From the IMG/VR virus record IMGVR_UViG_3300032030_002018: a stretch of DNA of 64,000 nt; one strand, written 5' to 3'. The position numbers and the translations under genes are program-made. This DNA is from a virus (Duplodnaviria > Caudoviricetes). The notes below the pieces were generated by a model that worked only from the letters and a program-made list of their open reading frames with translations, did not search any database and was not told where the DNA came from. Positions 24,022-62,089 of the stretch are shown here, piece after piece. The first letter of the stretch is position 1. Each line of letters opens with the position of its first letter.

Positions 24022-24038
24022 TATTAGATGATAGTTTT

Positions 24039-44679: not shown

Positions 44680-45103
44680 ATGAAAAAAAAAACTCATTAA
44701 ACTTACAGAATCCGACTTGAATAGAATCGTGAACAGGTCGGTGAAAAGAATACTTAGAGAAGATTTGGGGTCAGAATGGGAAAGTGGTTTTCCTCAATTT
44801 TGGGAATTATCAATACCAAACAAAAATATGAATTTAAGATACAAATTAACGCCACAAGATATGGAACTTATAAGCCAACATAGATTTGGTTTATGTAATT
44901 TATGGGAAATCATATGGGAAAACGTTCCAATTAATAAAAGAACAGGAAAGCCTTCAAAATCATTGAATTGGGATGTATATTACAAATATAAAGATAATCC
45001 AGCAAAAATATTCGAATGGTTGGCAAGACAAGGATATGATATATGGACAGAATGCGAAGAAATGGATTGGGAAGGCGTTTACGAAGATGATTATTTCAAA
45101 TAA
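44680..45103 (+). pseudogene. Tag-family gene frameshifted in an A10 tract
   Basis: ATG-A10-CTCATTAA stops at once; with A9 it reads MKKKLIKLTESDLNRIVNRSVKRILRE into ORF 44717..45103. Confidence 0.75.
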
Positions 45104-46548: not shown

Positions 46549-46580
46549 AAAAAGGAAGACTTTTAGTTGTCTTCCTTTTT
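46549..46580. terminator. Bidirectional terminator
   Basis: aaaaggaagac-N9-gtcttcctttt. Confidence 0.75.
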
Positions 46581-47768
46581 CCATATATATTTGAACAAAC
46601 CACAATCCCAAATTCTACCATAACCAATTGCATTTGCCATCTCTAATTCTGTCATTGTCATTGGTAATCCATATTTTTTACTTAATTTATCTTTCTTAAA
46701 TCTCTCCCTTCTAATACGCTCATAAGAATTCATATTGGCATAATAATATCCTGGTGGTGTTGAATATTCCAATTTAAATCCCAACTTTGTATATACATTA
46801 TTATCACTTGAAAGCGTCCATCTCTTGTCAGCAAACGAACGTATTTCAAATGGGTCATATTTCCTAACAAAATACTTGAATAACTTACCACCAATTCCCT
46901 GACATATACATCCATTCAAAGACGCAAATCTTGTTAAATTCCATTTGTTTTCACCCTCATTCAAAAACGACATTACACCAACAATCTCACCATTGTATAA
47001 TGCGCCAAGATGAATTGTAGAGCCAACAAATCCCTGAATGTGATTCTTATCCAAAAACATTTCAGCCTCATCTTTGCTAATCTCAATAATATCACACTTC
47101 CTACCAGGTATCTTCCTTATCATATCATCCTTACCGAAAATATGCTTAATCTTCGATAATACAACTTCAGGTCTATCCCTATATTCATCCTCCAATATCT
47201 GAATATAACGATAACCATTTGAATTGCACGTGAATAACCTATTCTTCAATAAACTCCTGTAATTAAAATGATGTAAATCAACAAGATTCTTGTTCTTATA
47301 TATGTCAATGGCAATATCACCAGCAACTAATCCAACAGTGCAATTGTTGTTTATCTTACGATTTAACTCATATTCAATACCATTCTCATCCAATAAAGAA
47401 ATAATCTTATTCAAAAACGAAATACGTGATACATTTACCTTCTTGATATGACCATTCCATCTATTAGTCTCAACACCATTGGAACTTAATATCTCACTAA
47501 CCTTGTCATACTTTAAATCATATTTCTCACATATTTCACTTATCTTCATATGCTTTGAAACATAATCCTTTATAATGGAAGAAACGGTCTTATTAGATAA
47601 ATCAATCTTATTACCAATACCCTTAACCTTTACACCACAAGACTTTAATAAATCAGTAATACCATTATTAGACTTGTGAAACATCTTGGCAAGAACCTTA
47701 ATACTACCATACTCATTATAAGCAGACTTTAATGCCTCCAAATCAATTTGCTTCGCAATCCTTCCCAT
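46563..47768 (-). CDS. Hef-like homing-endonuclease-associated protein (HTH repeats, degenerate nuclease-like domain, GNAT-like C-terminus)
   Basis: FLDKNHIQG...LTRFAS...GGKLFKYF...SFADKRW...YTKLGF...IWDCG. Confidence 0.6.
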   Translation of the reverse strand: MGRIAKQIDLEALKSAYNEYGSIKVLAKMFHKSNNGITDLLKSCGVKVKGIGNKIDLSNKTVSSIIKDYVSKHMKISEICEKYDLKYDKVSEILSSNGVETNRWNGHIKKVNVSRISFLNKIISLLDENGIEYELNRKINNNCTVGLVAGDIAIDIYKNKNLVDLHHFNYRSLLKNRLFTCNSNGYRYIQILEDEYRDRPEVVLSKIKHIFGKDDMIRKIPGRKCDIIEISKDEAEMFLDKNHIQGFVGSTIHLGALYNGEIVGVMSFLNEGENKWNLTRFASLNGCICQGIGGKLFKYFVRKYDPFEIRSFADKRWTLSSDNNVYTKLGFKLEYSTPPGYYYANMNSYERIRRERFKKDKLSKKYGLPMTMTELEMANAIGYGRIWDCGLFKYIWKKEDN

Positions 47769-48750
47769 ATACTAATAAACTTGTCCAATTATTTCTTTTT
47801 GCAGAATTATAAGCACCACCAAATTTCTTAATCATATCCCTTGCACCTTTGGATTTTCTTGCAGCATCTAACACGTTTTCCAACTTATCCCAATAACCAG
47901 CATCCTTATTCTTGTTTTCGAAAAATTCATCAATCCAACCATTCTTTACAGAAGAACTATAAGCTGGTTGATTACCAACTTTCATAGCATACTTTCCATC
48001 ATATTTCAATGCCTCTTCCTTGCATTTTTCATATGTCCATTTCAATGTTGCACCAAGAGAACCTTTACCAACGCCTGTTCTTGCCTTGTTTAAAGTAACC
48101 CATCCATCTGAAATGTATCTGTTTTTCCAATAATCTTCAAGTTCCTGACTCTTACTTGCAATCACATTCTCTTCTAATATCTTTGGAGAAGGAATCTCAA
48201 TATCATTCTCATTTGCAAATTTCCATACAATATCATATTCTCGTTCACCATCTGAATGACCATAACCTTTCCTATGCTGTCTGTCTCTTCTCTTTATATT
48301 ATTGGTTCTACCAACATAAAACGCCTTTAAATCAACAAATTCATAAACATATACAACATTAATAGGGTCATCATAACGCATATAATGAATTGAATCATCA
48401 TAAAACATTGAAGCAACCTCATCTAACCAATTGTGCTTTCTCAAACTAGTATAGCAAGGACTATTATGTTTCTCTAAATCAAATTTGTTATGATATTTAC
48501 GTGCTTCCTCAATGCAATGTTCTTTATCATTCCAATACCCAACAGGTTTATAAACTATACCATTTCTAACACACACAGGGCATCCTTGTTTCTTATTAAC
48601 CAACCTATAAAAATCCTTATGGAATTCTCCGTGTTCAGGACAAAACAGTGTGATATCAGATTTTGCATTCTTATATTCCCATCCTTCTTCTAATTTGTAC
48701 TTGTTACCGTGGACTTCTCTAATCTTTTCTAACGCTTCTTTAGTTTCCAT
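47743..48750 (-). CDS. GIY-YIG (Seg-like) homing endonuclease
   Basis: CPEHGEF...GCPVC zinc ribbon; VYVY...FYVGRT...RDRQH; WTYEKC.EEA.KY repeats; located next to the capsid gene like T4 segD. Confidence 0.75.
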   Translation of the reverse strand: METKEALEKIREVHGNKYKLEEGWEYKNAKSDITLFCPEHGEFHKDFYRLVNKKQGCPVCVRNGIVYKPVGYWNDKEHCIEEARKYHNKFDLEKHNSPCYTSLRKHNWLDEVASMFYDDSIHYMRYDDPINVVYVYEFVDLKAFYVGRTNNIKRRDRQHRKGYGHSDGEREYDIVWKFANENDIEIPSPKILEENVIASKSQELEDYWKNRYISDGWVTLNKARTGVGKGSLGATLKWTYEKCKEEALKYDGKYAMKVGNQPAYSSSVKNGWIDEFFENKNKDAGYWDKLENVLDAARKSKGARDMIKKFGGAYNSAKRNNWTSLLVYGKDCEAN

Positions 48751-48771
48751 ATATCAAATAATTTTATACTC

Positions 48772-48803
48772 CAAATATATATAAAAAAAGTTAAAAAAAC
48801 AAA
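48772..48803 (-). promoter_or_regulatory. Bacteroidota-type sigma-A promoter for the endonuclease pair
   Basis: Minus strand TTTG-N20-TATATTTG. Confidence 0.7.
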
Positions 48804-48922
48804 TTTATAACAATATATTTTAATAACTTTTTCCTAATAATAAATATAATAAGGCATTAAAAAAGATAACTTTTTCCTAACTATTTTTCATTTCTGAATG
48901 AATATTTGCATTATAAAACGGA

Positions 48923-48954
48923 AAAAGTTACCGAATTTTCACTCGGTAACCTTT
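48923..48954 (-). terminator. Terminator of the capsid gene
   Basis: gttaccga...tcggtaac stem with an adjacent A tract on the + strand. Confidence 0.7.
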
Positions 48955-48980
48955 CTAAATTATTGATTTTCAACAAGTTA

Positions 48981-50987
48981 TTAACGCAACTCACTGATTG
49001 ACCAATGAACAAGTCCGTCCACCCTCACGTGGCCGTAAAAGCGATTGTTGACTACCTTCTTCGCATATCTCGTCATTATACCTTTGACGGGAGCAAAGTT
49101 AAATGGATTATACATAGTAGGTGTTAACTGCATTGGCACGTATGGTGCGTAAATATAACCTGTGTCGAGGAGTGACTTACCCTTGTGACCGATGATAATT
49201 GACCAGTGTGGTGAATATGGGTCACGATAAACTTGGTAGCGTCCTGCGAGTGCGCCAATCTTTTCAATACCCATATTGTACTGGTCGCTTTCTGCGCTTG
49301 CGTCAGAAACGTGGAAGTACTCAAGGTTATCGAAGAGTGCGGATATTTCAGAAGATACTACAATGAAGTTTGCGCCACCACGGAGAGTTGCCTTATGTAT
49401 CTGTGCTGAAATCTGGTTAATCTTTGTGAAGAGTTCCTGGTTCCAGTCCTTCTGAGTGTAGTTAGTAGAGAATGCTGCCATTCTTCTCCAACCGTTGACA
49501 TCCCATCTTGCCTGCCAAGGAGCGGCTTTACGGAGGTCACGAAGAATCTCACGGTCAATTTCTGCTGCGATTTGTTCAGAAAGAATTGCTGTAAGTTCTG
49601 CCTCTGCGTCAATGTTATGGAATGCGCTAACGTCCTGTGCAAGTTCAGGAGACCAAGTTGCACGAAGTTTTCTTTCAGTAACTGATACTGTTACAGAATC
49701 GAGTTTGAAAGAAACCTCACCGATTTCGGTTTCAAGTTCAAGTGAATCGTACTGTGCCCAAGCAATCTTGAAGATTTCTGCTGTTGCATCTACATCAGTT
49801 GGGAATTCTCCAAGTGAATCTGCTGATACACCAACATAACCGTCAATTGTTCCACCTTGCTGCTTAACTGGTTTTGCGAGGTCAAGTTCAAGATAGATAT
49901 TTCCTTCTGCGTCACAAGCGCTGGAGTATTCTACAATACCCTTACCGTACTTTTGAGTAGCAACACGGAAAGGAACAGATTCAAACTGCTTGAAAGAAGA
50001 TGTGGTAACGCCAGATGCGCCTTCAACTTCACCAGCTGCAAGTTCCTTCATTGTGATAACTTTCAAAGAAGCCAAGAAAGCTTCTGTATCCATTTCGTTT
50101 CCGTCAGGACCTGTAAGTTTAGAAGCGTTGAAAGAAGAGAAGCCACCTACTTTAAGGATGACGTTACGAACAGTTCCGTCAAATCCGTTAAGTTGCCAGG
50201 TTACACCACTTGGAGGGGTATCCATACCTCTTGGAGTAAGGAATACAGGTGTTGCTTCACCAACCTTGATAGTAACTTTACCCTTAGAATTGTCATAAAG
50301 GAAGTCGTTATAGAAGAGGTCGTAAAGTGACTTTTGGAAGTACTTTGTTACCTCAGGACCAGCCTGACGATAGTTAGATGCAGGGATTGTTGGGTCAGCC
50401 TTAACTGCCTGTTGAAGTGCGTAACCGCTTTCGTATTCGTCTTCACCTGCTTCGATAGCTGGATTGATTTTTACAAACTTCTTTTCAAGTTCGTTAATTG
50501 TCTCGTCTGGGAGATAGTAGCGTGGTTCAACTTGTCCACCCTTATTGTTATTAACTCTATCGTAACCCATAAGACCTGTATGACGTCCTGTAGTTCCGTC
50601 TACGATATCACCAGGAGTGTACTCTTGGTCTGTTGGAAGTTCCCACTCTCTTTCTGATGTAACAGGAAGGATGAAGAACAACTTACCCACTGGCAAGTTC
50701 ATTGCCTGAACAGAAACGATATCGTTAGCAAGCAATTTGCTGAACACACGGCGAATGATAGGGAACACAACTGTTTCAAAAGAACCGCTGTTATCGGCTG
50801 CTGTTGCTTCTGAAATAAGGTGTTTTGCCTCGTTTTCGTAGAGTGTAGCGATATTTTCCTTAATAGTACCTTCAAGACCTTCGGTAAATCCGAGAGAGTC
50901 CCAACGTTTTTGGATGCTTTCACGAATCCTTCTCTGTTCGTTCAGTTCGATATTACCAACCTGTCCGCTTGATAAAAATTCTCTCAT
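48981..50987 (-). CDS. Major capsid protein (T4 gp23-like)
   Basis: IVSVQAMNLPVG.LF, RKLRATWSPELAQD..AFHNIDAEAELTAILSEQIAAEIDREI, YAPYVP, KGIMTRY; LISE/A maturation-like site. Confidence 0.96.
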   Translation of the reverse strand: MREFLSSGQVGNIELNEQRRIRESIQKRWDSLGFTEGLEGTIKENIATLYENEAKHLISEATAADNSGSFETVVFPIIRRVFSKLLANDIVSVQAMNLPVGKLFFILPVTSEREWELPTDQEYTPGDIVDGTTGRHTGLMGYDRVNNNKGGQVEPRYYLPDETINELEKKFVKINPAIEAGEDEYESGYALQQAVKADPTIPASNYRQAGPEVTKYFQKSLYDLFYNDFLYDNSKGKVTIKVGEATPVFLTPRGMDTPPSGVTWQLNGFDGTVRNVILKVGGFSSFNASKLTGPDGNEMDTEAFLASLKVITMKELAAGEVEGASGVTTSSFKQFESVPFRVATQKYGKGIVEYSSACDAEGNIYLELDLAKPVKQQGGTIDGYVGVSADSLGEFPTDVDATAEIFKIAWAQYDSLELETEIGEVSFKLDSVTVSVTERKLRATWSPELAQDVSAFHNIDAEAELTAILSEQIAAEIDREILRDLRKAAPWQARWDVNGWRRMAAFSTNYTQKDWNQELFTKINQISAQIHKATLRGGANFIVVSSEISALFDNLEYFHVSDASAESDQYNMGIEKIGALAGRYQVYRDPYSPHWSIIIGHKGKSLLDTGYIYAPYVPMQLTPTMYNPFNFAPVKGIMTRYAKKVVNNRFYGHVRVDGLVHWSISELR

Positions 50988-51029
50988 ATTATTAATAAAT
51001 GTTATAATTAATTATTTTCATTTGTTTTA

Positions 51030-52580
51030 TTATTTGCATAATCTATGCATCAAGTCCAATGAACTGAGCAGGTCATCGGATTTATAGATACGAGTCTCAT
51101 TAACTTTTTTATTTTCAGTCAAGAATTCAGGATTGCTGATGTTGATTTTGTTTCTGTTTTGCAACTCCCTTGAAATTGACTCGTATAGATTTCTTGATTC
51201 CTTGACTGTTTTCGCCTCATTTCCAAATCGTGCGATAATCTCCTTCTTTTCGTCAGAGCTGGTTGAGTTTTCAGAGATGAGTTTTATTATTTGTCCAAGA
51301 TTGACATTTGTCACAGCTGCTTCCTTAAGAATGCCTTTGAATTGGTTAAGAGCGCGTTTAAGTTCATTATTCTCACGGAAAATGTTATTTGCCCTTCTTA
51401 CAACTGATTCAGTAGTAACATCGTCTTCTCTATTGGAATATCTTGGGGTTACAGTTCCCTTTATTCTCCTTCCACCCTTGCTTGCGCTTCTTGCGCTTCT
51501 ACCGTTTGAGTTTGGAACGTGTGATTTGGAAGTTGAGTTTTGTTGAACGAAGCCCCCAACGTTTGTTGCCTCTTCAAGTTCCATATCGTCTTCTTCCTCA
51601 ACAGTTTTTCCTTTTCCGGCTGTGAAAGGTTTGTCTGCTGATTTCCTTGGATATCCTGACCAAGGTTTAGCGTCACCCTTTGGAACACCCTTATCCCAAT
51701 CTCTTACATTTTTGCCAGGTTCTGACATACCAGGATTACTCATAACATCATTTTTCTGATAGTTATCAGTATATCCAACGTTGGAATCGTATTCATTCAG
51801 GGCGATTTCAAAAATCATCGATTCATTCATTGTTTTATCATTATTATCTTCGTCTTCTTCGGAATCCTCATCAGTATCATCCTCCAAGACATTATCTTCA
51901 TCATCGTCGATTTCGACCTCGATATCATCGTCATCAGTGTCGTCGTCTTCTGTATCATAAGAAACCTCAATATCAACATCGTCATCAGTATCGTCAATAT
52001 CAACATCTGTATCGTCAAAATCAGTGTCAATATCTGTATCAACGTCTGTATCCGTGTCCATATCAAGAATTATCTCACTATCAGCAGAATCAGCGTCATC
52101 ATCAAGAACGATGATATATTCTGCCCCGGTTTCATTGTCTTTAACGTTGACCTTATTGTCAGTTTTCTTAATTACAACTTGGTCGTCGTTATTGAGCAAT
52201 TTATAAACCTTCACGACTTCATCGTCTTCCGCGTTAGAGAAATCATACTCGTCATCTGATACCTTATACTTATCAAAATCAGACCATTCCTCAGCATCAT
52301 CAGAATCTATATCTGAATCCATATCGCCTGTTTCATTTTCGTCTGAATCATCGGTATCAATTTCAGTATCTTCCACCTCTTCAACATCATAAGCGTCGTC
52401 ATCCTCGTCTTTGTCATCTTCTTCAGATTCGTTCAAGATTTTTGTATAGGTTTCACGAACTGCGTCATTAAGCAAATCCTTAACAGCATTTGTCGTGTTT
52501 TCCTTAAGCAATCCTTCGATATTGCTGAACTCATCAAGAGATTCCTTGACATATTTGCTTCTGATATTTTCTTTTTTCAT
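51030..52580 (-). CDS. Prohead scaffold/core protein (gp22 position)
   Basis: Highly acidic with coiled-coil C-terminus and many LxE sites; directly upstream of the capsid gene. Confidence 0.75.
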   Translation of the reverse strand: MKKENIRSKYVKESLDEFSNIEGLLKENTTNAVKDLLNDAVRETYTKILNESEEDDKDEDDDAYDVEEVEDTEIDTDDSDENETGDMDSDIDSDDAEEWSDFDKYKVSDDEYDFSNAEDDEVVKVYKLLNNDDQVVIKKTDNKVNVKDNETGAEYIIVLDDDADSADSEIILDMDTDTDVDTDIDTDFDDTDVDIDDTDDDVDIEVSYDTEDDDTDDDDIEVEIDDDEDNVLEDDTDEDSEEDEDNNDKTMNESMIFEIALNEYDSNVGYTDNYQKNDVMSNPGMSEPGKNVRDWDKGVPKGDAKPWSGYPRKSADKPFTAGKGKTVEEEDDMELEEATNVGGFVQQNSTSKSHVPNSNGRSARSASKGGRRIKGTVTPRYSNREDDVTTESVVRRANNIFRENNELKRALNQFKGILKEAAVTNVNLGQIIKLISENSTSSDEKKEIIARFGNEAKTVKESRNLYESISRELQNRNKINISNPEFLTENKKVNETRIYKSDDLLSSLDLMHRLCK

Positions 52581-52755
52581 AATTTAAAAATAAATAAAAT
52601 TTAGTTTTCTTACAATTAATTATCAGTAAATTACAAATTTACCGATTTTTAGCATCATTTTTAAAAATAAATATATCATATTATTAAAAAAAATAACTAA
52701 AATATACCTTTAATTGAAAAAAAAATATATTTATATTAAAAAATCTTAAAAAAAG

Positions 52756-53910
52756 ATGAATAAAGGTGTAATAAAAGAGATAAAAAAGGGAGAAACAGGT
52801 AAGGGATTGTTAATTGAATCTGATGGATACATATCAATGAACCTGTCAGAAAACAACAGAAGGATATGCGAGGATTTCAGACAGGATGGATGGAATGTAC
52901 CAAAGCCATTCATCGTTGATGCTGTATTTCAGAAATTTGATACAAAAAATGCAAACGGAAGAATATATCCTGAGAAAATATTAAAGGAACAAGTTGAAAT
53001 ATACCAACAGAAAATCAAAGAAAGAAGAGCATACGGTGAATGCTATAAACCAGATGCACTGATATTAACTGAAACCGGATGGAAAACACTGGAAGAAGTT
53101 AAAGTTGGCGATAATATACTCACGTTAAATGTTGAAACAAATCAAATCGAAATTCAACCTATATATGAAAAGGTTGAATATGATTATGAGGGAGATATGA
53201 TAAGGATATACAATAGGAACATTGATGATATTGTAACGCCAGAACACCAATACATCGTATATGATAATGATACAAAAAAATATCTTAATAGATATACAGC
53301 CACAGAAATTATGTACGGAGATTTCGATGATAAACTATATATTCCAAATATCGGTATAAATGACGGAATTCTTCTAAAAGACGTTAAATCAGAAAAAATC
53401 CCATATAATGGCAAAGTTATGTGTGTAAAAGTTGAAAATCACAACTTCTATGTTATGTGTAACAATAAAACACACTGGACATCAAATTACTGTAACCATC
53501 CGTCGGACACCACAATTGACCTTGGACGAATATCACATAACATCATTGAGTTACATTGGGTTGGAAAAACACTTGTTGGAAAAATGGAACTCAACATATC
53601 TGAAGGTTTCAGGCGTAACGGAATATGTTCGTCATATGGAGATACTGTTGCATTGCTATTGCTTAATGGATATAAGATTGGAGTGTCTTCAAGAGGAGTT
53701 GGAAATGTTGAAATGAAAATGGGAAATTATATCGTTGGAGACGATTTTGAAATAATCTGTTGGGATACCGTTTCTGACCCAAGCACTCCGGGGGCTTTTA
53801 TATCATCAAACGGTCCTGATGAATTACGGCAATATGTAGAAAATTCAGAAAAGGATAAATCAAAACTTATTTCAGAAAAAATAAACAAAATAAAAAACAT
53901 ACTTAAATAA
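52756..53910 (+). CDS. Prohead maturation protease (T4 gp21-like) with mini-intein
   Basis: KNANGRIYP, AYGE...NHP, SHNI, IGVSSRGVG, WDTVSDPSTPGA. Confidence 0.93.
   Translation: MNKGVIKEIKKGETGKGLLIESDGYISMNLSENNRRICEDFRQDGWNVPKPFIVDAVFQKFDTKNANGRIYPEKILKEQVEIYQQKIKERRAYGECYKPDALILTETGWKTLEEVKVGDNILTLNVETNQIEIQPIYEKVEYDYEGDMIRIYNRNIDDIVTPEHQYIVYDNDTKKYLNRYTATEIMYGDFDDKLYIPNIGINDGILLKDVKSEKIPYNGKVMCVKVENHNFYVMCNNKTHWTSNYCNHPSDTTIDLGRISHNIIELHWVGKTLVGKMELNISEGFRRNGICSSYGDTVALLLLNGYKIGVSSRGVGNVEMKMGNYIVGDDFEIICWDTVSDPSTPGAFISSNGPDELRQYVENSEKDKSKLISEKINKIKNILK
53041..53487 (+). mobile_element. Mini-intein (149 aa, no endonuclease)
   Basis: C1 CYKPDALILTETGW; block B VTPEH; block F KVMCVKVENHNFYV; ends WTSN. 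Confidence 0.85.
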
Positions 53911-53949
53911 TAGCAATGATATACTATTTTACCTAAATATCTAAATAAT

Positions 53950-53979
53950 AATGAGCAGCCAAATAAATGACTGCTCATT
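53950..53979. terminator. Bidirectional terminator, ATGAGCAG family
   Basis: aatgagcagcc-N8-gactgctcatt. Confidence 0.75.
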
Positions 53980-54008
53980 CTATTTTTTATACACATATGT
54001 CAAATGCA

Positions 54009-56144
54009 TCAAGATGCTGCATATATTTTATCAGCATAATATTTCCAATTGTCTGCTGATTTATATGAATCAACCATATTTGAAGGGACATATATTTTGA
54101 AATCATTCCCAACCTTGTTAAACGCACCGTATCCAAGAGTTACAACATTGCTTTCATTATCAATCGTAACTGAAGACAAATTAATGCATCCAACAAACGA
54201 TGACGCACCTATATTTGTACAACCTGAAGGTATTACAATTTCAGTCAAGCTCTTACATAATGAGAATGAACAAGTTCCTATTGATGTGATATTTGATAAA
54301 TCAACACCAGTAAGGCCAGTTGCGCCATAAAAAGCAAAACTACCAATTGAAGTAGCACTAGACGGAATCTCAGAAGTGCTACATCCTGCAACTATGCAAT
54401 TTGAAGGAAATATTCTTACAGGAGAAGATGGAGATGCACTCGTATAACTATATATATTCTGTGTAGACATTATAACATTCTTTCCACCATCAGTATAATA
54501 AGTATTTCCAGTATCAACAGTTATGTTTGTCATACCCTGACAATTCTTTAATATACCCTCCCTTATTGTAGTAACACTTGCAGGAATAGTAATTGAAGAC
54601 AATGACTTACAATCAGCAAAGAAATAACTTCCAATTACTTTCAAAGCGTTGGAAACTGGGTCAAAAGAACCAGAAGAAGTATTAAACTCAAATGAACGTA
54701 AATTTACACAACCACTAAAAGTAGCACCATACTTAGCAGTAACATCTGCACCAATACCATCATTACCAGCAGGTTTATCGTCACCTCCCAAAATAGACGA
54801 ATGTAACGTCATACTGACAGAAGTCAAAGCACTGCATCCATAAAAGGCATAATTACCCAATATCTGTAAAGGGGTATTAACGAAATCAGCACTTTCAAGA
54901 TTTATGCACTTCTGAAATGAATATCTTTTAACAGCTTTGACATTCGCATTAACAGATGTAATACCACTGCAATTTACGAAAGATGAATTCTGAATACTCT
55001 TTATTCTTGAATCACCAAAATCTGTTGATTTACAACCTGTAACTAAATTACCAGCATCCGTAGAAGTACCAACAACAACAGCATTAAGAGTATTGCCAGT
55101 ATAATATCTACTATTATTATTTGCTACCTCAATGAAATCACAATTTGATAATTTCTCAGTAACACTAGTAACACCTGACGGTATAGTTACAGAATTAATA
55201 CTCTGACAAAATAACGCAAAACCACCAAAAGACTTGACATTCGAAGGTATAACAGTATTCTTACAACCAACAATCATCTTGTTGTCAGATTTACTGATAA
55301 CAGCGTTACAATTATTTCGACTGTCATAAACAGGATTGTCAGAATCAACCGTAACAGCAGATACATTATAACATTCTGCAAAAGAAGAAGAACCTATACC
55401 AGTTATTCCTGAATGTATGTGTATGGAAGTCAAACCATTACAGCCATAAAAAGCATTGTTATCAATACCAGTGATAGTATCAGGTATAACAGTGTTCTTG
55501 CAACCAACGACAATATGATTATTCGAAACGTCAATTACAGCATTACATTCATTACCATTAGCATCCATTGAAGTGTATTTAACATTCCTTTCATCAACGA
55601 TAATGCTCTCAAGAGAAGTACAACTACGTAAAGCATCACCATTTATATCATTTACATTATAAGGTATCGCCAAATGCTTTAAATTATAAAGATTAGAAAA
55701 ACTTGAATTAATCTTCTTCATATAAGGCGATATAATCAAAGTGGATATATTATGGCAATCAAACAATCTGGTATTACATTCAGGAGAATAAAACTCATAC
55801 GCGAACACGTGCCTTCCAACAGTCTCAAACTGCCATATCAAACCATAAGAATGAGTACTACCAGAATTATTACTCAATATCTTCACACCATCAACATACC
55901 AATCAAACGAATTCGCATCCCTGAAAGAATTAGACGTTACCTCAATCGGCTCATTCAGTAAATCACTGGTAACATCTAATACACCAATTATATAATAACG
56001 CTTGTCATAATGAACCTCACCTAAATCGCCACCTTCAATCAAGTAAGAACTTACATAAGTGTCAGCAGAAGTTATAGTCCCCTCATAATCCCACTGAGTC
56101 TCATTGTCACTAAATAAATGTATATATCTATTATCTAATATCAT
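54009..56144 (-). CDS. BspA/TpLRR leucine-rich-repeat protein
   Basis: Many IGxxAFxGCxxLTSIxIP repeats, SRNNCNAVI...GCKNTVIP units and an IYVP...YK.A.NW cap. Confidence 0.88.
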   Translation of the reverse strand: MILDNRYIHLFSDNETQWDYEGTITSADTYVSSYLIEGGDLGEVHYDKRYYIIGVLDVTSDLLNEPIEVTSNSFRDANSFDWYVDGVKILSNNSGSTHSYGLIWQFETVGRHVFAYEFYSPECNTRLFDCHNISTLIISPYMKKINSSFSNLYNLKHLAIPYNVNDINGDALRSCTSLESIIVDERNVKYTSMDANGNECNAVIDVSNNHIVVGCKNTVIPDTITGIDNNAFYGCNGLTSIHIHSGITGIGSSSFAECYNVSAVTVDSDNPVYDSRNNCNAVISKSDNKMIVGCKNTVIPSNVKSFGGFALFCQSINSVTIPSGVTSVTEKLSNCDFIEVANNNSRYYTGNTLNAVVVGTSTDAGNLVTGCKSTDFGDSRIKSIQNSSFVNCSGITSVNANVKAVKRYSFQKCINLESADFVNTPLQILGNYAFYGCSALTSVSMTLHSSILGGDDKPAGNDGIGADVTAKYGATFSGCVNLRSFEFNTSSGSFDPVSNALKVIGSYFFADCKSLSSITIPASVTTIREGILKNCQGMTNITVDTGNTYYTDGGKNVIMSTQNIYSYTSASPSSPVRIFPSNCIVAGCSTSEIPSSATSIGSFAFYGATGLTGVDLSNITSIGTCSFSLCKSLTEIVIPSGCTNIGASSFVGCINLSSVTIDNESNVVTLGYGAFNKVGNDFKIYVPSNMVDSYKSADNWKYYADKIYAAS

Positions 56145-56180
56145 AAATTAACCTTTTTTTGCTAAATGCAATTATATCTT

Positions 56181-56318
56181 GTGAACTACCCACAAACTAA
56201 AGATTCGTAGGCTTCTGACTTCTCAGCGAATTGCCCTTGAAAGGGTCTTACATCTGCTCCATCAGTGTAATCGACAGTCCCTGCCGATATATTTCTTAAT
56301 ACTTCCGAAAGGATATTA
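56181..56318 (-). mobile_element. Orphan IS200/IS605-type tnpB 3' end / omega-RNA remnant
   Basis: Minus strand encodes NILSEVLRNISAGTVDYTDG...SEAYESLVCG* and ends GGGTAGTTCAC, typical of TnpB termini; the rest of tnpB is absent. Confidence 0.7.
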
Positions 56319-56921
56319 AATACAATTAAATCTTATAAATCTCCTTATAGACTCATTCACAGCACGCCTAATGGAACGATTTATGGATTCTAATTCAACG
56401 TTGAATGTAGCCTTATCATTAGCCATTTGCTCAGCATTGTTTGCATCATCTTTTATTTTCTTTCTGTCTTTCATAGACTGCCTATACATAAACAAATTAG
56501 CACCTGTAAGTTGTTTCCCTATTTTACCAATAATAATACCCCTTACCCTGTCTAATACTGGGTCTGATTTATATTTGGCATTTAAAGTTTTCTTAATTGT
56601 CTGAGCTTTGGTCTTTTTACCGCCTTTGTTATTTAATTTAACAATAGCCTTTGCTAAATCCTGTTGGTATTTGTCATATATATAATAACAACTCTTAAAC
56701 ATTTCAAGGTCATCATCCTTAATATAATTCGTAACCTTATCAGTTGTGTTTGCCCTGAAATTTGCAAAGAAATCATCAGCCAAATGGGAGATATCAATCA
56801 TATCATCAATATAACCCATTATGTCACCAGAACAAGGCAACATAATATTCTCAAAGAAATCTGCCACATCAGTATCAATCAATTCCTTTGTCTGCTCAGG
56901 TGTTAGTTCATAATAATCCAT
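56316..56921 (-). CDS. Hypothetical protein with C-terminal tag-like motif
   Basis: ELESINRSIRRAVNESIRRFI at C-terminus. Confidence 0.7.
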   Translation of the reverse strand: MDYYELTPEQTKELIDTDVADFFENIMLPCSGDIMGYIDDMIDISHLADDFFANFRANTTDKVTNYIKDDDLEMFKSCYYIYDKYQQDLAKAIVKLNNKGGKKTKAQTIKKTLNAKYKSDPVLDRVRGIIIGKIGKQLTGANLFMYRQSMKDRKKIKDDANNAEQMANDKATFNVELESINRSIRRAVNESIRRFIRFNCI

Positions 56922-56924
56922 ATT

Positions 56925-57116
56925 CTATTCAACATCCATATATCCATTATTATCATTATCTCTGTCAGATACAAACTGATTCATCTTGTTCAATATGTCC
57001 AAACATTCCTCATCAGACATTATATCCAACCTGCCAACTGCTTCATTTACAGCCTTTTTCCTTAAAACATTCTTCGTTTCCTCACGAATTATATCCCTTA
57101 ATCTATTTCTTCTCAT
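56925..57116 (-). CDS. Small protein with loose tag (LRDIIREE...VNE)
   Basis: 63-aa coupled ORF. Confidence 0.6.
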   Translation of the reverse strand: MRRNRLRDIIREETKNVLRKKAVNEAVGRLDIMSDEECLDILNKMNQFVSDRDNDNNGYMDVE

Positions 57117-57565
57117 TTTATCTTAACTTTACTAACATTGACATCATTGCGGTCAAAAGCATAAGACATCTCATTACATACCTCAAACGCCATATCACCC
57201 ATAACATCCTTTAAATCATTTAACTTACGAACAATATCACCATTCTGAGTCACATATAAATCAAAAGTGACAAACTTACTACCACCAGGTTTCTGACCAC
57301 ATAAATTTAAATCAAAATCAAATATGTATCTGTTACTAAAAGTATCAGAATGACCATTTACAACACGTTTCACAGCATCACGCACCCGACGGTAAACAAA
57401 GTTCTGAACATCATCAGTGAAATCACCATCATTACTCTTTACCCAAGTCTTGCCACTTATATATACAACAACAGGATTCAACCTGTCAACGCAACCAATC
57501 GATACCCTTACCTTGTCAGAAATATTATCCAATTTGATATCCTTACCCAATCTGCTCTTATTCAT
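57113..57565 (-). CDS. Hypothetical protein
   Basis: 150-aa ORF. Confidence 0.7.
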   Translation of the reverse strand: MNKSRLGKDIKLDNISDKVRVSIGCVDRLNPVVVYISGKTWVKSNDGDFTDDVQNFVYRRVRDAVKRVVNGHSDTFSNRYIFDFDLNLCGQKPGGSKFVTFDLYVTQNGDIVRKLNDLKDVMGDMAFEVCNEMSYAFDRNDVNVSKVKIK

Positions 57566-57612
57566 AATCTAAACCTCTTTTTTATAAAAAATAAAGGTTT
57601 CAATCATAAAAG

Positions 57613-58527
57613 TCAAATGCCGCCATCCATAAGTATATCCCTAATCTCCAATAACTTCGCAATGTCACCAACAATGGTCTCAGAACAATAATCCATACCA
57701 GATATATCACCCTTCAACTCCATTAAACGGCTCTTGTCAGCCTCATCAGCACCATCAATCATCTCATCAATCTTCTTCAAACAATCATCCCTGAAAGAAC
57801 AGAATAAATTCTTCTTACGATTGTCAGCACCAACAGACTTTGCATCAATTATCTGATTCACAAGCTCACGCTCATCCTCATTCAACATATTGTAAGCATT
57901 CTTGGACTTGCACTCATTAACAACATCAACACGCTTATGCTCATCAATATACTTACTTACATTCTTCCTCGATTCCAATAAAGTCGATATGTTTCCCAAC
58001 GATTCAACCTTTAACATAAGTTTCTGACAATCATTGAAAAACCTCTTCCTATCCTCAGATAATAGCGAAGAAGGCTTTATACCATTGCGAACCAATAAAT
58101 CAGATAACTTCCTGTTGGATTCCAATAACCTCTTCCTGTTTATCTTCGAACGTAACAACTTTACAGCACGATTTAAATAAGCATCAGAAGAAACTGATTC
58201 ACTTAACCTGCTGTTATACTCATTCAACGCATTGTAAAAACTAAACTGGGCGGATAAATTGACATCATTCCTAATCATATTCATTATCTCAGACAATAAC
58301 TTCCTGTTACCCTTGAATAAAGACGGAACATTCTCAATAATAATTTCATTCAATATGCCGAAATTATCACAACGGGATTCAGATAACAAAGCATCAGAAC
58401 GACGCATTGAAGATACCTTACCCTCCAATAATTCCTTAGCCCTGTCAAAACCATTATAATCGCCATTGACAATACTGTCATTCATCATACCAATGTATTT
58501 GCCAATAATATTACTTCTTCTAGACAT
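57613..58527 (-). CDS. Helical hypothetical protein (head-associated?)
   Basis: Start MSRRS at 58527 downstream of TATTTAT; several LxE sites. Confidence 0.65.
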   Translation of the reverse strand: MSRRSNIIGKYIGMMNDSIVNGDYNGFDRAKELLEGKVSSMRRSDALLSESRCDNFGILNEIIIENVPSLFKGNRKLLSEIMNMIRNDVNLSAQFSFYNALNEYNSRLSESVSSDAYLNRAVKLLRSKINRKRLLESNRKLSDLLVRNGIKPSSLLSEDRKRFFNDCQKLMLKVESLGNISTLLESRKNVSKYIDEHKRVDVVNECKSKNAYNMLNEDERELVNQIIDAKSVGADNRKKNLFCSFRDDCLKKIDEMIDGADEADKSRLMELKGDISGMDYCSETIVGDIAKLLEIRDILMDGGI

Positions 58528-58659
58528 AAAAAAATATTTTTTTCTTAAATAAATATAACAAATATCCAATATTTTCCGTTTAGTTTAATAATAATTATTA
58601 AACTAATGAAAATATTATGAAAAATAGAATGGCAATTATAGACGAGTTGACACGAAATA

Positions 58660-58693
58660 AAAATGAGCAGCCATTAATTTGACTGCTCATTTT
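58660..58693. terminator. Bidirectional terminator, ATGAGCAG family
   Basis: aaaatgagcagcc-N8-gactgctcatttt. Confidence 0.75.
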
Positions 58694-58705
58694 GTATTTT
58701 ATACA

Positions 58706-59488
58706 TTACCAATACTCTCTTTCATCTGATGTATCCAAATAATCACTACACCTTCGTTCTAATTCATCAGAAATTTCCCGCCTAATGAATTTCCTTAATC
58801 TGATTTTATCAGAATCATTAGGTACATATTCATTTAAAATCTTACCTTCTATTCTATTCAACAATTGTGATATTTCTCCTTTTATGCTCTTTTTCTCATA
58901 ATCATTGCCATAAACTGATATATCAAGTATATGTAGTAGGTCTTGATTTAATTCATCGTCGAAACATTGTTTAATAATACTTCGCCAAGAAGAATTCCCC
59001 TTTTTATATCCGTTCCTATCTACATTGTCTCTATTCAATCCATTCTTGTTGAACCCCTGACGATTAAAACCATCTCTATCAATACCATATCGGTTAAAAC
59101 CTTCTCTATTATATCCTTCACGGTCATAACCTCTATTGTTGAAACCTTCTTTATCAAAGCCACTTCTTCCAAAACCATTCTTATCATAACCTTCTCTATC
59201 ATATCCTTCACGGTCATAACCATTAACATCCCTTTTTGGAATTCTCTTTAACCCTATTTCTGGTTCCCGATTATTTGTTTTAACTAAAGTATCTGTTGTT
59301 ATCCAATCTTTAGGCATTTTACCATTGTATTCACCAAACGTATCATCCAAATATTTCCTGGTACCGTATTTATCATCAAGTTTTGGCTTTACCTCTATTT
59401 CATTTAATATTCTTTTCACAGACTCTGATACTATTCTTCTCAATCCTGATTCTGTTAATCTAACTCTATTTTTTCTCATAATTTTCAT
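58706..59488 (-). CDS. Tag-family protein with G(Y/F)(D/N)xx pentapeptide repeats
   Basis: RVRLTESGLRRIVSESVKRILNE; GYDREGYDREGYDKNGF... about 12 repeats. Confidence 0.85.
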   Translation of the reverse strand: MKIMRKNRVRLTESGLRRIVSESVKRILNEIEVKPKLDDKYGTRKYLDDTFGEYNGKMPKDWITTDTLVKTNNREPEIGLKRIPKRDVNGYDREGYDREGYDKNGFGRSGFDKEGFNNRGYDREGYNREGFNRYGIDRDGFNRQGFNKNGLNRDNVDRNGYKKGNSSWRSIIKQCFDDELNQDLLHILDISVYGNDYEKKSIKGEISQLLNRIEGKILNEYVPNDSDKIRLRKFIRREISDELERRCSDYLDTSDEREYW

Positions 59489-59559
59489 CAGTTTAATAAT
59501 TATTATTAAACTAAACGGAAAAATACTGGATAATTGTTATATTTATATTAAAAAATATA

Positions 59560-60207
59560 ATGGATACAAAGGAAATCAACAAGATTATAAACAAATTATA
59601 TCGCATTGTTCAAAAAAGCGGATATAGCGGAAAACTGTATCGTGACGACGACTGGTCAGGATTATTCTCAATAAGAGAGATTGTCCAACCAGTACTTCCA
59701 CCAGGATTCAGACTGATTATGAACCACGTGTACGGATATACACAAGACGGCAATTCAAAGGAATATCAATTCACAGTCGAACACGAAGAAACCGGAGAGC
59801 AAATAATTGACGGATATATCACAGCTCACGCAGCCGGGAATATGAACGATAAATGGAGCGCATACGATATAACAGCACAATGGGCAAAACATAATAATAC
59901 ATATACAGAATCAAATAAGATGAAAAAGAAACTTGTAAGATTAACAGAATCTGACCTACATAGAATTGTTAATGAGTCAGTAAGAAAAGTATTGAGAGAA
60001 TGGAACAATGATTACGAAGGAAACGACTTAACATACGATTCAATAAAAATGCAAGCAGAACATATCATACCACAAATGGAACAGAATGGAGAACCAATCT
60101 CTTGGAGGAATGTTGCAAAACAAATGGGATTCAGACTTGAAACACTCAACGGAGATGATATGGAACTGCTCAAAGACACAATAGAAGAAGTTATGATGTA
60201 TATGTAA
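59560..60207 (+). CDS. Two-cargo protein with internal tag
   Basis: YTESNKMKKKLVRLTESDLHRIVNESVRKVLRE in mid-protein, retaining its own ATG. Confidence 0.8.
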   Translation: MDTKEINKIINKLYRIVQKSGYSGKLYRDDDWSGLFSIREIVQPVLPPGFRLIMNHVYGYTQDGNSKEYQFTVEHEETGEQIIDGYITAHAAGNMNDKWSAYDITAQWAKHNNTYTESNKMKKKLVRLTESDLHRIVNESVRKVLREWNNDYEGNDLTYDSIKMQAEHIIPQMEQNGEPISWRNVAKQMGFRLETLNGDDMELLKDTIEEVMMYM

Positions 60208-61407: not shown

Positions 61408-62013
61408 ATGAAAAGAAAAATTAGACTAACAGAATCTGACCTTCACAGAATCGTGAATGAGTCAGTGAAGAGCATATTAACCGAACTTGATTGGAGAACA
61501 GTAGTGAGTGCCGCTAATAAGGCACGTGCCAAATTTAAAGATATGGTAGTTGACCGTGCAATGGGACAACTTGACCCTTATGGCAAATATAGTAAATTAA
61601 CTGGACAATACGGACCACATAGTGATTATGTAATTAAAAGAAGTTGGAAAAGTCCTAAAGGTTCAACTCGTTGGGTTAACAAAGATGACGAAATACGAAG
61701 AAAGATGAGGCAAGCAGATAATCTTTCTAAATTTGCCGACGAAGCAATTAAAGATAGATTCGGTAAAGAATCATATTACAACAATTTAAATGGAGTCGGA
61801 GAAGAATTCCCAGTATATAGAAAAACGCGTAATAACAGAGAAATGGATGAACCAGAAGTTTTGGACTACACCCCAAACAATGATTATGTAAATGGAGAAT
61901 ACGGTGATTATGAATTAGACAGTATGCCACAAAAATACCAAGATAATGCCAAGGAAATTAATGATTTCCAAAACGGGAAAACAAAATATCTTAAAGGAAG
62001 AGGATGGAAATAA
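61408..62013 (+). CDS. Tag-family protein
   Basis: MKRKIRLTESDLHRIVNESVKSILTE plus unique cargo. Confidence 0.85.
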   Translation: MKRKIRLTESDLHRIVNESVKSILTELDWRTVVSAANKARAKFKDMVVDRAMGQLDPYGKYSKLTGQYGPHSDYVIKRSWKSPKGSTRWVNKDDEIRRKMRQADNLSKFADEAIKDRFGKESYYNNLNGVGEEFPVYRKTRNNREMDEPEVLDYTPNNDYVNGEYGDYELDSMPQKYQDNAKEINDFQNGKTKYLKGRGWK

Positions 62014-62058
62014 AACATTAATAATGTCAACTATGTACGAGTTGACACGAAATAATTG

Positions 62059-62089
62059 AAAAATGCAGCCATATCTGACTGCATTTTTT
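62059..62089. terminator. Terminator hairpin (ATGAGCAG-family variant)
   Basis: aaaaatgcagcc-atatct-gactgcatttttt. Confidence 0.7.

What the first reader, a model, noticed from the sequence alone, without database searches (positions are those of the whole stretch)
58549..58693. Empty cassette: promoter and tag start joined directly to the 3' module
Seen: 58549-58627 copies the upstream region and first codons of tag gene 58706..59488 (ATGAAAAATAGA vs ATGAGAAAAAATAGA). It then runs straight into atggcaattatagACGAGTTGACACGAAATAA plus a hairpin, homologous to the sequence after tag gene 61408 (19-bp exact match 58642-58660 = 62037-62055). Only a 21-codon mini-ORF (58617-58682) remains. Inference: cassettes have conserved 5' and 3' modules and the cargo between them is gained or lost as a unit. 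This is the most direct sign that the tag family is an exchangeable cassette system.
Basis: partly seen in the sequence, partly recalled or inferred. Interest (0 to 1): 0.8.

Follow-up and report, generated by a model that had tools for sequence, protein, structure and literature searches.

The report
Tag gene cut by transposon end
The "empty cassette" is the promoter and first five codons of a phage gene cut off by one leftover end of an IS1595-type jumping gene, so it is a transposon scar and not an empty slot of a cassette-exchange system.

Summary
58540-58630 is an inverted, 86-91% identical copy of the promoter and start of tag gene 58706..59488. It runs straight into a motif that recurs at 62026.

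The interpretation needs replacing. The "3' module" (58631-58655) is the 25-bp terminal inverted repeat of a cargo-carrying IS1595-family insertion sequence (a transporter IS, tIS). The hairpin after it is the terminator that 23 of 26 related elements carry just inside their transposase-distal end. A complete copy lies 7.4 kb to the right, just beyond the window. Relatives with up to 97% identical transposase sit in rumen Prevotella/Bacteroidales chromosomes, and 22 of 26 have perfect 8-bp target duplications.

The tag-gene copy stops in codon 5 (MKNRI), exactly at the first base of the repeat. The locus is therefore a tag gene truncated by a tIS end whose transposase side is gone.

Only one of about 28 tag genes has this motif downstream in the same orientation, so it is not a general 3' module.

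This scan had already noted tIS carrying tag genes in other jumbo phages. Filled alleles could not be tested.

The parts
58540..58630 (+). P': a copy of the bidirectional promoter module of the MKIMRKNR subfamily of tag genes. It includes the 27-nt palindrome, ATG at 58617 and the first 4 2/3 codons (MKNRI). Its outer half faces gene 57613..58527.
   Evidence: Inverted repeat with 59465-59555. blastn 89% over 91 nt, E = 5e-25, and 76-90% to four other copies in the genome. Six-way alignment. Pairwise identities.
58631..58655 (+). Solo 25-bp terminal inverted repeat (transposase-distal type) of an IS1595-family transporter IS.
   Evidence: 24/25 identical to each end of the complete IS at genome 235253-237914. 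25/25 identical to the repeat of the elements in L005 and L006, whose transposase is 97% identical. A position-weight matrix built from 52 ends scores it 25 bits, and no hit reached 14 bits in 10 shuffled genomes.
58660..58693 (.). Subterminal hairpin. It is a bidirectional intrinsic terminator and also closes tag gene 58706..59488.
   Evidence: Terminator scan. Folds with z = -5.7 and -7.7. The same type of hairpin lies just inside the distal repeat in 23 of 26 complete relatives. 91% identical to the hairpin of the element in L018.
58617..58682 (+). 21-codon ORF that runs from the tag-gene start through the IS repeat into the hairpin. Judged a by-product.
   Evidence: The other repeat copies show no conserved frame or start codon.
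57613..58527 (-). Conserved head-module gene (304 aa) transcribed divergently from P'. In related phages its homolog directly follows the portal gene.
   Evidence: tblastn 32-37% identity, syntenic with the protease and major head protein in 12 relatives. The portal of this phage lies at window 22021-24063.
58706..59488 (-). Tag gene (260 aa, MKIMRKNRVRLTESGL...). It reads towards the hairpin and the IS repeat, as the distal cargo gene of a tIS does.
   Evidence: The same layout occurs at genome 162655..163033 and in the bona fide tIS of L024 and L040.
59465..59555 (-). P: the intact promoter module and start of the 260-aa tag gene. It is the other arm of the inverted repeat and also faces gene 59560..60207.
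59560..60207 (+). 215-aa gene with an internal tag at residue 127, the N-domain + tag + C architecture common in tIS passengers. With the tag left out, its N-domain has no detectable homolog among the sampled IS cargo.
61408..62013 (+). Tag gene (201 aa). Its stop codon lies 12 nt before a second, decayed solo IS end.
62026..62050 (+). Decayed solo distal repeat, 21/25 identical to the repeat at 58631-58655. All four mismatches lie in the outer 11 nt.
62058..62089 (.). Subterminal hairpin of the second solo end, of the GCAGCC...GACTGC type found in many relatives.
53912..53979 (+). Third, more decayed solo distal end, from a different repeat subtype, with its hairpin (53950-53979). It starts 1 nt after the stop of the prohead protease gene.
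   Evidence: blastn 80% over 76 nt to the distal end of the element in L039. Sequence read directly.

Best explanation
The locus is a scar left by a cargo-carrying IS1595-family insertion sequence (tIS).

Starting state. A tag gene, here called Z, once started at 58617. It was driven by one of six paralogous bidirectional promoter modules. Z was convergent with tag gene 58706..59488, or otherwise lay next to it.

Insertion. A tIS end landed in codon 5 of Z. The gene now stops after ATG AAA AAT AGA AT, and the next base is the first base of the 25-bp terminal repeat. The repeat is followed by the terminator hairpin that these elements carry just inside their transposase-distal end.

Loss. The transposase side of that element and the rest of Z are gone. 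One route is recombination between IS copies. Another is recombination between the IS hairpin and one of the many near-identical phage terminators. Alternatively, 58631-60207 is the surviving cargo half of the element.

What remains:
- The outer half of the promoter module probably still drives the conserved head-module gene 57613..58527.
- A short, probably meaningless transcript or 21-codon ORF ends at the hairpin.
- The hairpin terminates the 260-aa tag gene.

Shown: the identity of the repeat and hairpin, the exact junction, the family and activity of the IS in relatives, and the link between tIS and tag genes.

Inferred: the order of events and how the other half was lost.
For: (1) IS identity. 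The repeat 58631-58655 is 24/25 identical to both ends of a 2,662-bp element at genome 235253-237914. That element's 325-aa ORF hits Pfam DDE_Tnp_IS1595 (5.5e-44) and Zn_ribbon_IS1595. It also hits NCBIfam transpos_IS1595 with 199 bits against a cut-off of 75.

(2) Active relatives. 48 loci hold transposases 63-97% identical, in rumen Prevotella/Bacteroidales MAGs and four viral contigs. In them 26 complete elements of 1.5-3.0 kb could be delimited. 22 have perfect 8-bp AT-rich target duplications. 23 have a strong hairpin right inside the distal repeat.

(3) Junction. The six-way alignment shows the tag-gene module continuing to ...AATAGAAT and then switching, at the first base of the repeat, to sequence shared with the IS end.

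(4) A second case. The outside flank of the complete IS carries the same promoter module, cut 31 nt earlier, again exactly at the first base of the repeat.

(5) More remnants. Further solo distal ends lie at 62026, at 53912 and at genome 163033(-), each followed by a hairpin and then the stop of a convergent gene. Also present are a MITE-like pair of ends and two transposase C-terminal fragments beside tag genes.

(6) Cargo layout. About 24 of 26 relatives carry a tag-bearing passenger gene. The elements in L024 and L040 have the layout tag gene, hairpin, distal repeat, as at 58631-59555.

(7) Age of the repeat arms. P' is no closer to its inverted neighbour (86%) than to a paralog 90 kb away (83%). 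The inverted repeat is therefore two old paralogs, not a maintained switch.
Against: - The complete IS in the phage has no target duplication (TAATTATT against AAAAAAAT).
- No sequence continuing gene Z was found next to any IS end, so the insertion event cannot be reconstructed.
- No close relative with an uninterrupted site was found.
- The hairpin at 58660-58693 is of a different subtype from that of the resident complete IS. It resembles ordinary terminators elsewhere in the phage. It may belong natively to the 260-aa gene rather than to the IS.
- Two of five distal ends abut the same rare promoter module. That is more than a random insertion model predicts and is only loosely explained by AT-rich target choice.
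Confidence: 0.8

Rival explanations
1. Nested or accreting transposon. The ends at 58631, 62026 and 53912 are usable alternative distal ends that face the single transposase-proximal end at genome 237914. Units of 6.7 to 15 kb could then move together, carrying tag genes, the lysis cassette and TnpB. The truncated tag gene would mark where such a large unit landed.
For: - All four nearby distal ends point the same way, towards the one proximal end, within 15 kb of a 335-kb genome.
- In L030, a Prevotellaceae chromosome, the inner pair of ends has no target duplication. The outer pair, 3,962 bp apart and enclosing an internal distal end, has a perfect 8-bp duplication. An outer nested end has therefore been used in nature.
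Against: - None of the phage's left flanks matches the right flank AAAAAAAT; the best is 6/8 in A-rich sequence.
- The DNA after the proximal end does not continue a tag gene.
- The ends at 62026 and 53912 are decayed (4 or more mismatches).
- The stretch enclosed from 53912 contains conserved head-module genes that are syntenic in relatives.
Confidence: 0.1
2. Invertible segment. The roughly 90-nt inverted promoter arms (58540-58628 and 59465-59555) are recombination sites. Flipping 58629-59464 would switch which promoter copy drives the 260-aa tag gene.
For: - Inverted repeats at 86-91% identity bracket one gene.
- Both arms carry an inward ATG and an outward promoter-like motif.
- One serine recombinase is encoded in the genome.
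Against: - Inversion would give a mirror-image arrangement with no obvious change in expression.
- The arms are no more alike than distant paralogs.
- The only recombinase lies 75 kb away.
- The structure is fully explained by two paralogous promoters plus an IS end.
- Read-level evidence could not be obtained.
Confidence: 0.06
3. This is an empty acceptor of a dedicated cassette system in which tag genes have conserved 5' and 3' modules and cargo is swapped between them.
For: - The 5' module (promoter plus tag, about 100-170 nt) is conserved at DNA level across paralogs whose cargo is unrelated.
- Stand-alone and in-frame fused tags share the same upstream sequence, so the tag region probably serves as a homology patch for recombination.
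Against: - The 3' module is an IS end and is absent from the great majority of tag genes.
- There is no integrase.
- The 5' module is cut inside codon 5, not at a module boundary.
Confidence: 0.03
4. Functional small gene or small RNA. The retained promoter expresses the 21-residue peptide, or an RNA of about 80 nt containing the IS repeat, and this product has a role of its own.
For: An intact promoter-like module, an ATG and a terminator are all present.
Against: - The peptide is encoded by IS repeat and hairpin DNA that is non-coding in every relative.
- The other copies lack a matching frame or start codon.
Confidence: 0.01

Closest known systems
Transporter IS (tIS) of the IS1595 family: insertion sequences with passenger genes inside the inverted repeats. 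Defined in the TnCentral preprint, doi 10.1101/2021.05.26.445724. The family description by Siguier, Gagnevin and Chandler 2009 is cited from my own knowledge.
   Same: - DDE transposase with an N-terminal zinc ribbon.
- Terminal inverted repeats of about 25 bp.
- 8-bp AT-rich target duplications in relatives.
- One to three passenger genes between the transposase and the distal end.
   Different: At 58631 only the distal repeat and hairpin remain. There is no transposase, no second end and no target duplication. The passenger set of this clade, genes sharing a roughly 25-residue RLTESDLHRIV tag, has no annotation in Pfam, PHROGs, PADLOC or NCBIfam.
Solo IS ends, IS remnants and MITEs left by deletion or recombination between IS copies
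   Same: One intact terminal repeat abuts a truncated host gene. Several decayed copies and a MITE-like pair of ends occur in the same genome.
   Different: Here the remnants keep a working terminator hairpin and sit between convergent genes, so they may have been co-opted as terminators. The host is a jumbo phage rather than a bacterium.
   Same: A family of small genes with variable cargo and a recurring short motif near some 3' ends.
   Different: There is no integrase in the genome, no attC-like site at most family members, and no common attI. The recurring motif is an IS end.
Invertible promoter or gene segments (shufflons, Bacteroides invertons)
   Same: Inverted repeats bracket a gene and its promoter.
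   Different: No adjacent invertase. The repeats are only 86-91% identical and no more alike than dispersed paralogs. Inversion would give an equivalent arrangement.

Membership tests
IS1595 family (complete copy at genome 235253-237914, the source lineage of the repeat) | DDE transposase of the IS1595/ISXO2 type with an N-terminal zinc ribbon | tested here: met
   Pfam PF12762 5.5e-44 and PF12760 3.8e-07. NCBIfam NF033547 199 bits against a cut-off of 75. It is the only such gene in the genome.
IS1595 family (complete copy) | Terminal inverted repeats at both ends | tested here: met
   The two 25-nt ends differ at 2 positions.
IS1595 family (complete copy) | 8-bp direct target duplication | tested here: not met
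   The phage copy has flanks TAATTATT and AAAAAAAT. The feature is met in 22 of 26 relatives in Bacteroidales MAGs and viral contigs, so the lineage makes 8-bp duplications. The phage copy has probably been rearranged.
Solo tIS distal end (the feature at 58631-58693) | Sequence identity to a bona fide terminal repeat, beginning exactly where flanking homology ends | tested here: met
   25/25 to the repeat in L005 and L006, and 24/25 to both ends of the resident IS. The junction is shown in the alignment.
Solo tIS distal end | Subterminal terminator hairpin typical of the transposase-distal end | tested here: met
   Present at 58660-58693. Present in 23 of 26 relatives.
Solo tIS distal end | Transposase gene and second repeat belonging to the same element | tested here: not met
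   No transposase remnant lies between 58694 and 62025. The only proximal end is 10.1 kb away.
Integron-like cassette system | Tyrosine recombinase (integrase) and a recombination site shared by the cassettes | tested here: not met
   No PF00589 match in the genome, while the control genomes all matched. The motif lies beside only 3 of about 28 tag genes.
Invertible segment | Both orientations present in the population, with a dedicated invertase | not testable with these tools
One serine recombinase lies 75 kb away.

The most novel reading that the evidence does not exclude
The tIS and the tag-gene 5' cassette may together form a cargo-turnover system in jumbo phages and their Bacteroidales hosts.

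- The elements would insert preferentially into the AT-rich, palindrome-bearing promoter or start of resident tag genes. Two of five distal ends in this genome do so.
- The shared tag sequence would then give the homology needed to swap cargo between IS and phage.
- Nested distal ends, used at least once in nature (L030), would let the transposase pick up and move successive cargo modules. In this phage such modules hold a lysis cassette and a TnpB element.
Probability: 0.15. Interest if true: 0.65.

Novelty: new member of a known kind. Interest (0 to 1): 0.35.

Why it matters
On its own the locus is an ordinary IS scar. Recognising it removes a false lead, the idea of an integron-like "tag cassette" system.

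It does add to a picture this scan has met on other DNA. A clade of IS1595 transporter elements shuttles genes marked by one short uncharacterised tag between rumen Bacteroidales chromosomes and giant phages, and then decays in place.

This genome shows the later stages of that process:
- solo ends reused as terminators;
- resident tag genes destroyed by new insertions;
- a mosaic IS whose transposase and cargo halves have different closest relatives;
- a break in head-gene synteny exactly at the scar.

This helps explain how a phage comes to hold about 28 paralogs with a common 5' end and unrelated cargo.

Tried and rejected
Searches for related or filled alleles that gave nothing:
- Relatives of the flanking 304-aa protein: none in viral contigs or metagenome contigs.
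- The repeat as an exact pattern in viral contigs: no hit.
- The genome search does not draw relatives for a virus record.

Annotation of tag proteins and IS cargo:
- Pfam, PHROGs, PADLOC and NCBIfam gave no match above cut-off.
- The ESM Atlas gave only unnamed clusters.
- No paper in the library contains LTESDL.

Test of whether 59560..60207 is IS-derived cargo:
- With the tag masked, its N-domain has no hit among the sampled IS passengers, so this stays open.

Search for a target duplication or the missing half of the cut gene:
- None found next to any IS end.

Search for further nested-end cases:
- The three other relatives without a duplication showed none.

Ideas considered and rejected:
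- The 33-nt motif as a conserved C-terminal peptide (IIDELTRN, MYELTRNN, IIDDLTRI). The sequence is the non-coding IS repeat in every complete element.
- A recent local inverted duplication of the promoter. The two arms are no closer to each other than to distant paralogs.

Full report
**Context.** The window is bases 169184-233183 of a 334,687-bp virus record that is 96% complete by CheckV. It is a jumbo phage with about 34% GC. A T4-like head module lies in the window: major head protein at 48981..50987 and maturation protease at 52756..53910. The genome holds about 28 genes that share a tag of about 25 residues, (M)KRRIRLTESDLHRIVNxSVKRVL. The tag is usually N-terminal and sometimes internal.

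**Observation.** It is confirmed.
- 58540-58628 on the plus strand is an inverted copy of 59465-59555, the promoter and start of tag gene 58706..59488(-). The repeat finder gives 53 nt at 91% and 36 nt at 86%. Genome-wide blastn gives 89% over 91 nt, E = 5e-25.
- The same module stands upstream of three more tag genes, at genome 132031, 137324 and 162655. A sixth, truncated copy lies at window-extended 65993-66069.
- In the six-way alignment the copy follows its paralogs through ATG AAA AAT AGA AT, which reads MKNRI, inside codon 5. It then diverges.
- The next 33 nt recur at 62023-62055 at 88%, with a 19-nt exact core. That core is found twice in the genome against 0.03 expected.
- The hairpin 58660-58693 is a strong bidirectional terminator.

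**What the "3' module" is.**
- The 25 nt at 58631-58655 (GGCAATTATAGACGAGTTGACACGA) are 24/25 identical to each end of a 2,662-bp element. That element lies at genome 235253-237914, or window-extended 66070-68731.
- Its 325-aa ORF is an IS1595-family transposase. It hits Pfam DDE_Tnp_IS1595 at 5.5e-44 together with the family's zinc ribbon, and NCBIfam transpos_IS1595 with 199 bits against a cut-off of 75. It is the only one in the genome.
- The transposase has relatives at 63-97% identity in 44 loci of rumen or gut Prevotella and Bacteroidales MAGs and in four viral contigs.
- In those loci I could delimit 26 complete elements of 1.5-3.0 kb by their repeats. 22 have perfect 8-bp AT-rich target duplications, so the clade is or recently was active.
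- The repeat at 58631 is 25/25 identical to that of the 97% relatives L005 and L006.
- 23 of the 26 elements have a strong hairpin within about 15 nt inside the transposase-distal repeat. These hairpins are of the same two sequence types as those at 58660-58693 and 62058-62089.

This is a transporter IS in the TnCentral terminology.

**Other remnants in the phage.**
- Solo distal ends, each followed by a hairpin and then the stop codon of a convergent gene, occur at three further places. One is at 62026, with 4 mismatches. One is at genome 163033(-), with 3 mismatches. One is at 53912, of another repeat subtype, 1 nt after the protease stop.
- A MITE-like pair of ends about 226 nt apart lies at genome 250820-251045.
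- Transposase C-terminal fragments lie just downstream of tag genes at genome 98969..99472 and 99747..100229.
- Related jumbo phages also carry such ends.

**Link to the tag family.**
- About 24 of the 26 complete relatives carry, convergent with the transposase, a passenger gene containing the same tag. The tag is at the N-terminus or follows an N-domain of 150-250 residues.
- The passengers of the phage's own IS are homologous to those of the element in L009 (57% and 52% protein identity).
- Its transposase half is 93% identical in DNA to the elements in L005 and L006, and its cargo half about 70% identical to L009. The element is a mosaic.
- The elements in L024 and L040 have a tag gene reading into the hairpin and the distal repeat. 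This is the layout seen at 58631-59555 and at genome 162655-163033.
It exists because tag genes are tIS cargo.
- As a general 3' module the motif fails. Only 61408..62013 has it downstream in the same orientation.

**Most likely history (inferred).**
- A resident tag gene that started at 58617 was hit in codon 5 by a tIS end.
- The rest of that gene and the transposase side of the element were later lost.
- The complete IS has no target duplication (TAATTATT against AAAAAAAT), which is a sign of recombination between IS copies.
- Its outer flank is a second copy of the same promoter module, cut 31 nt earlier and again exactly at the first base of the repeat. This points to a second, independent hit or to an IS-adjacent deletion.
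- The six promoter modules make up about 0.2% of the genome. Two of five distal ends abutting them is unlikely under uniform insertion, roughly 3e-5 by my own estimate. AT-rich target choice and the dispensability of tag genes would both raise that figure.
- The promoter copy probably survives because its outer half faces the conserved 304-aa head-module gene 57613..58527.
- In twelve related phages the homolog of that gene directly follows the portal. In this phage the portal is at 22021-24063. Head-gene synteny therefore breaks exactly at this scar.

**Rivals.**
- An invertible switch is unlikely. The two arms are no more similar to each other (86%) than to a paralog 90 kb away (83-88%). Inversion would give a mirror image. 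The only recombinase is a serine recombinase 75 kb away. Reads could not be examined.
- A nested transposon that uses the solo ends as alternative distal ends is not excluded. In L030 the outer of two nested distal ends, not the inner, carries the perfect 8-bp duplication. All nearby phage ends face the single proximal end. However, no duplication matches, two ends are decayed, and the stretch enclosed from 53912 contains conserved head-module genes.
- The 21-codon ORF is made of IS repeat and hairpin DNA and has no conserved counterpart.

**Limits.**
- The function of the tag is unknown. No library annotates it and no paper in the library contains the motif.
- Its third-codon-position variation between copies (family D2) suggests selection on the peptide.

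**Verdict.** This is a known kind of feature, and the tIS-tag link had already been noted by this scan on other genomes (e1-5761273, e1-5633990, e1-5482586). The context is moderately interesting.

Noticed in passing
L030:3520-7481 (Prevotellaceae MAG RUG755): The tIS has two nested distal ends. The inner pair of repeats (3520/6128) has no target duplication. The outer pair (3520/7481) has a perfect 8-bp one (TATTTTTA). A 3.96-kb unit with an internal solo end and two extra genes therefore transposed as a whole.
   Followed up: partly
genome 235253-237914 (window-extended 66070-68731; L003:2254-4915): The complete IS1595 tIS is a mosaic. The transposase half is 93% identical in DNA to the elements in L005 and L006. 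The cargo half (119-aa gene and the N-domain of the 362-aa gene) is about 70% identical to the element in L009. It has no target duplication.
   Followed up: partly
genome 250820-251045 (L135:821-1046): MITE-like element of about 226 nt. It is bounded by inverted repeats of the same IS family and has a GC-rich interior. Its flanks are TTTTTTTA and TTTTTTAA. It lies about 0.7 kb from a tag gene and near a tRNA-like sequence.
   Followed up: no
genome 98865-98944 and 99644-99697 (L134): Fragments of the IS1595 transposase C-terminus (86-95% DNA identity to IS copies) lie just downstream of two tandem tag genes. These genes probably arrived as IS cargo and the transposase was later deleted.
   Followed up: partly
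window 58578-58604; also L136:13338, L137:901, L138:5607: The promoter module contains a perfect 27-nt palindrome (TTAGTTTAATAAT-A-ATTATTAAACTAA). The same palindrome occurs in an intergenic region that does not precede a tag gene in three other 215-380-kb phage contigs. It may be an operator site.
   Followed up: no
window 57613-58527 compared with 22021-24063: In 12 related jumbo phages the homolog of the 304-aa gene directly follows the portal gene. Here the two are 34 kb apart. The head block 46563-58527 is flanked on both sides by tag genes.
   Followed up: partly
window 44690-44710 (genome about 213870-213890): One tag gene has its ATG followed by a run of ten A, and the tag is one base out of frame. 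This is either a slippery homopolymer or a sequencing error.
   Followed up: no
window 59560-60207; genome 235738-236826, 105098-106504, 135963-136703 and 214307-214906: In several genes the tag is internal and is preceded in frame by an unrelated N-domain. The codons just before the internal Met are the same sequence that forms the untranslated leader of stand-alone tag genes. This suggests fusion or fission by recombination at the tag.
   Followed up: no
L065:5535 and L065:15777: A related phage has two inward-facing repeats of the same subtype 10.2 kb apart. They enclose its major head protein gene.
   Followed up: no
genome 304437-304826 (L139): The only serine recombinase (Resolvase domain, 3.6e-19) in the genome. 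No tyrosine recombinase was found.
   Followed up: no
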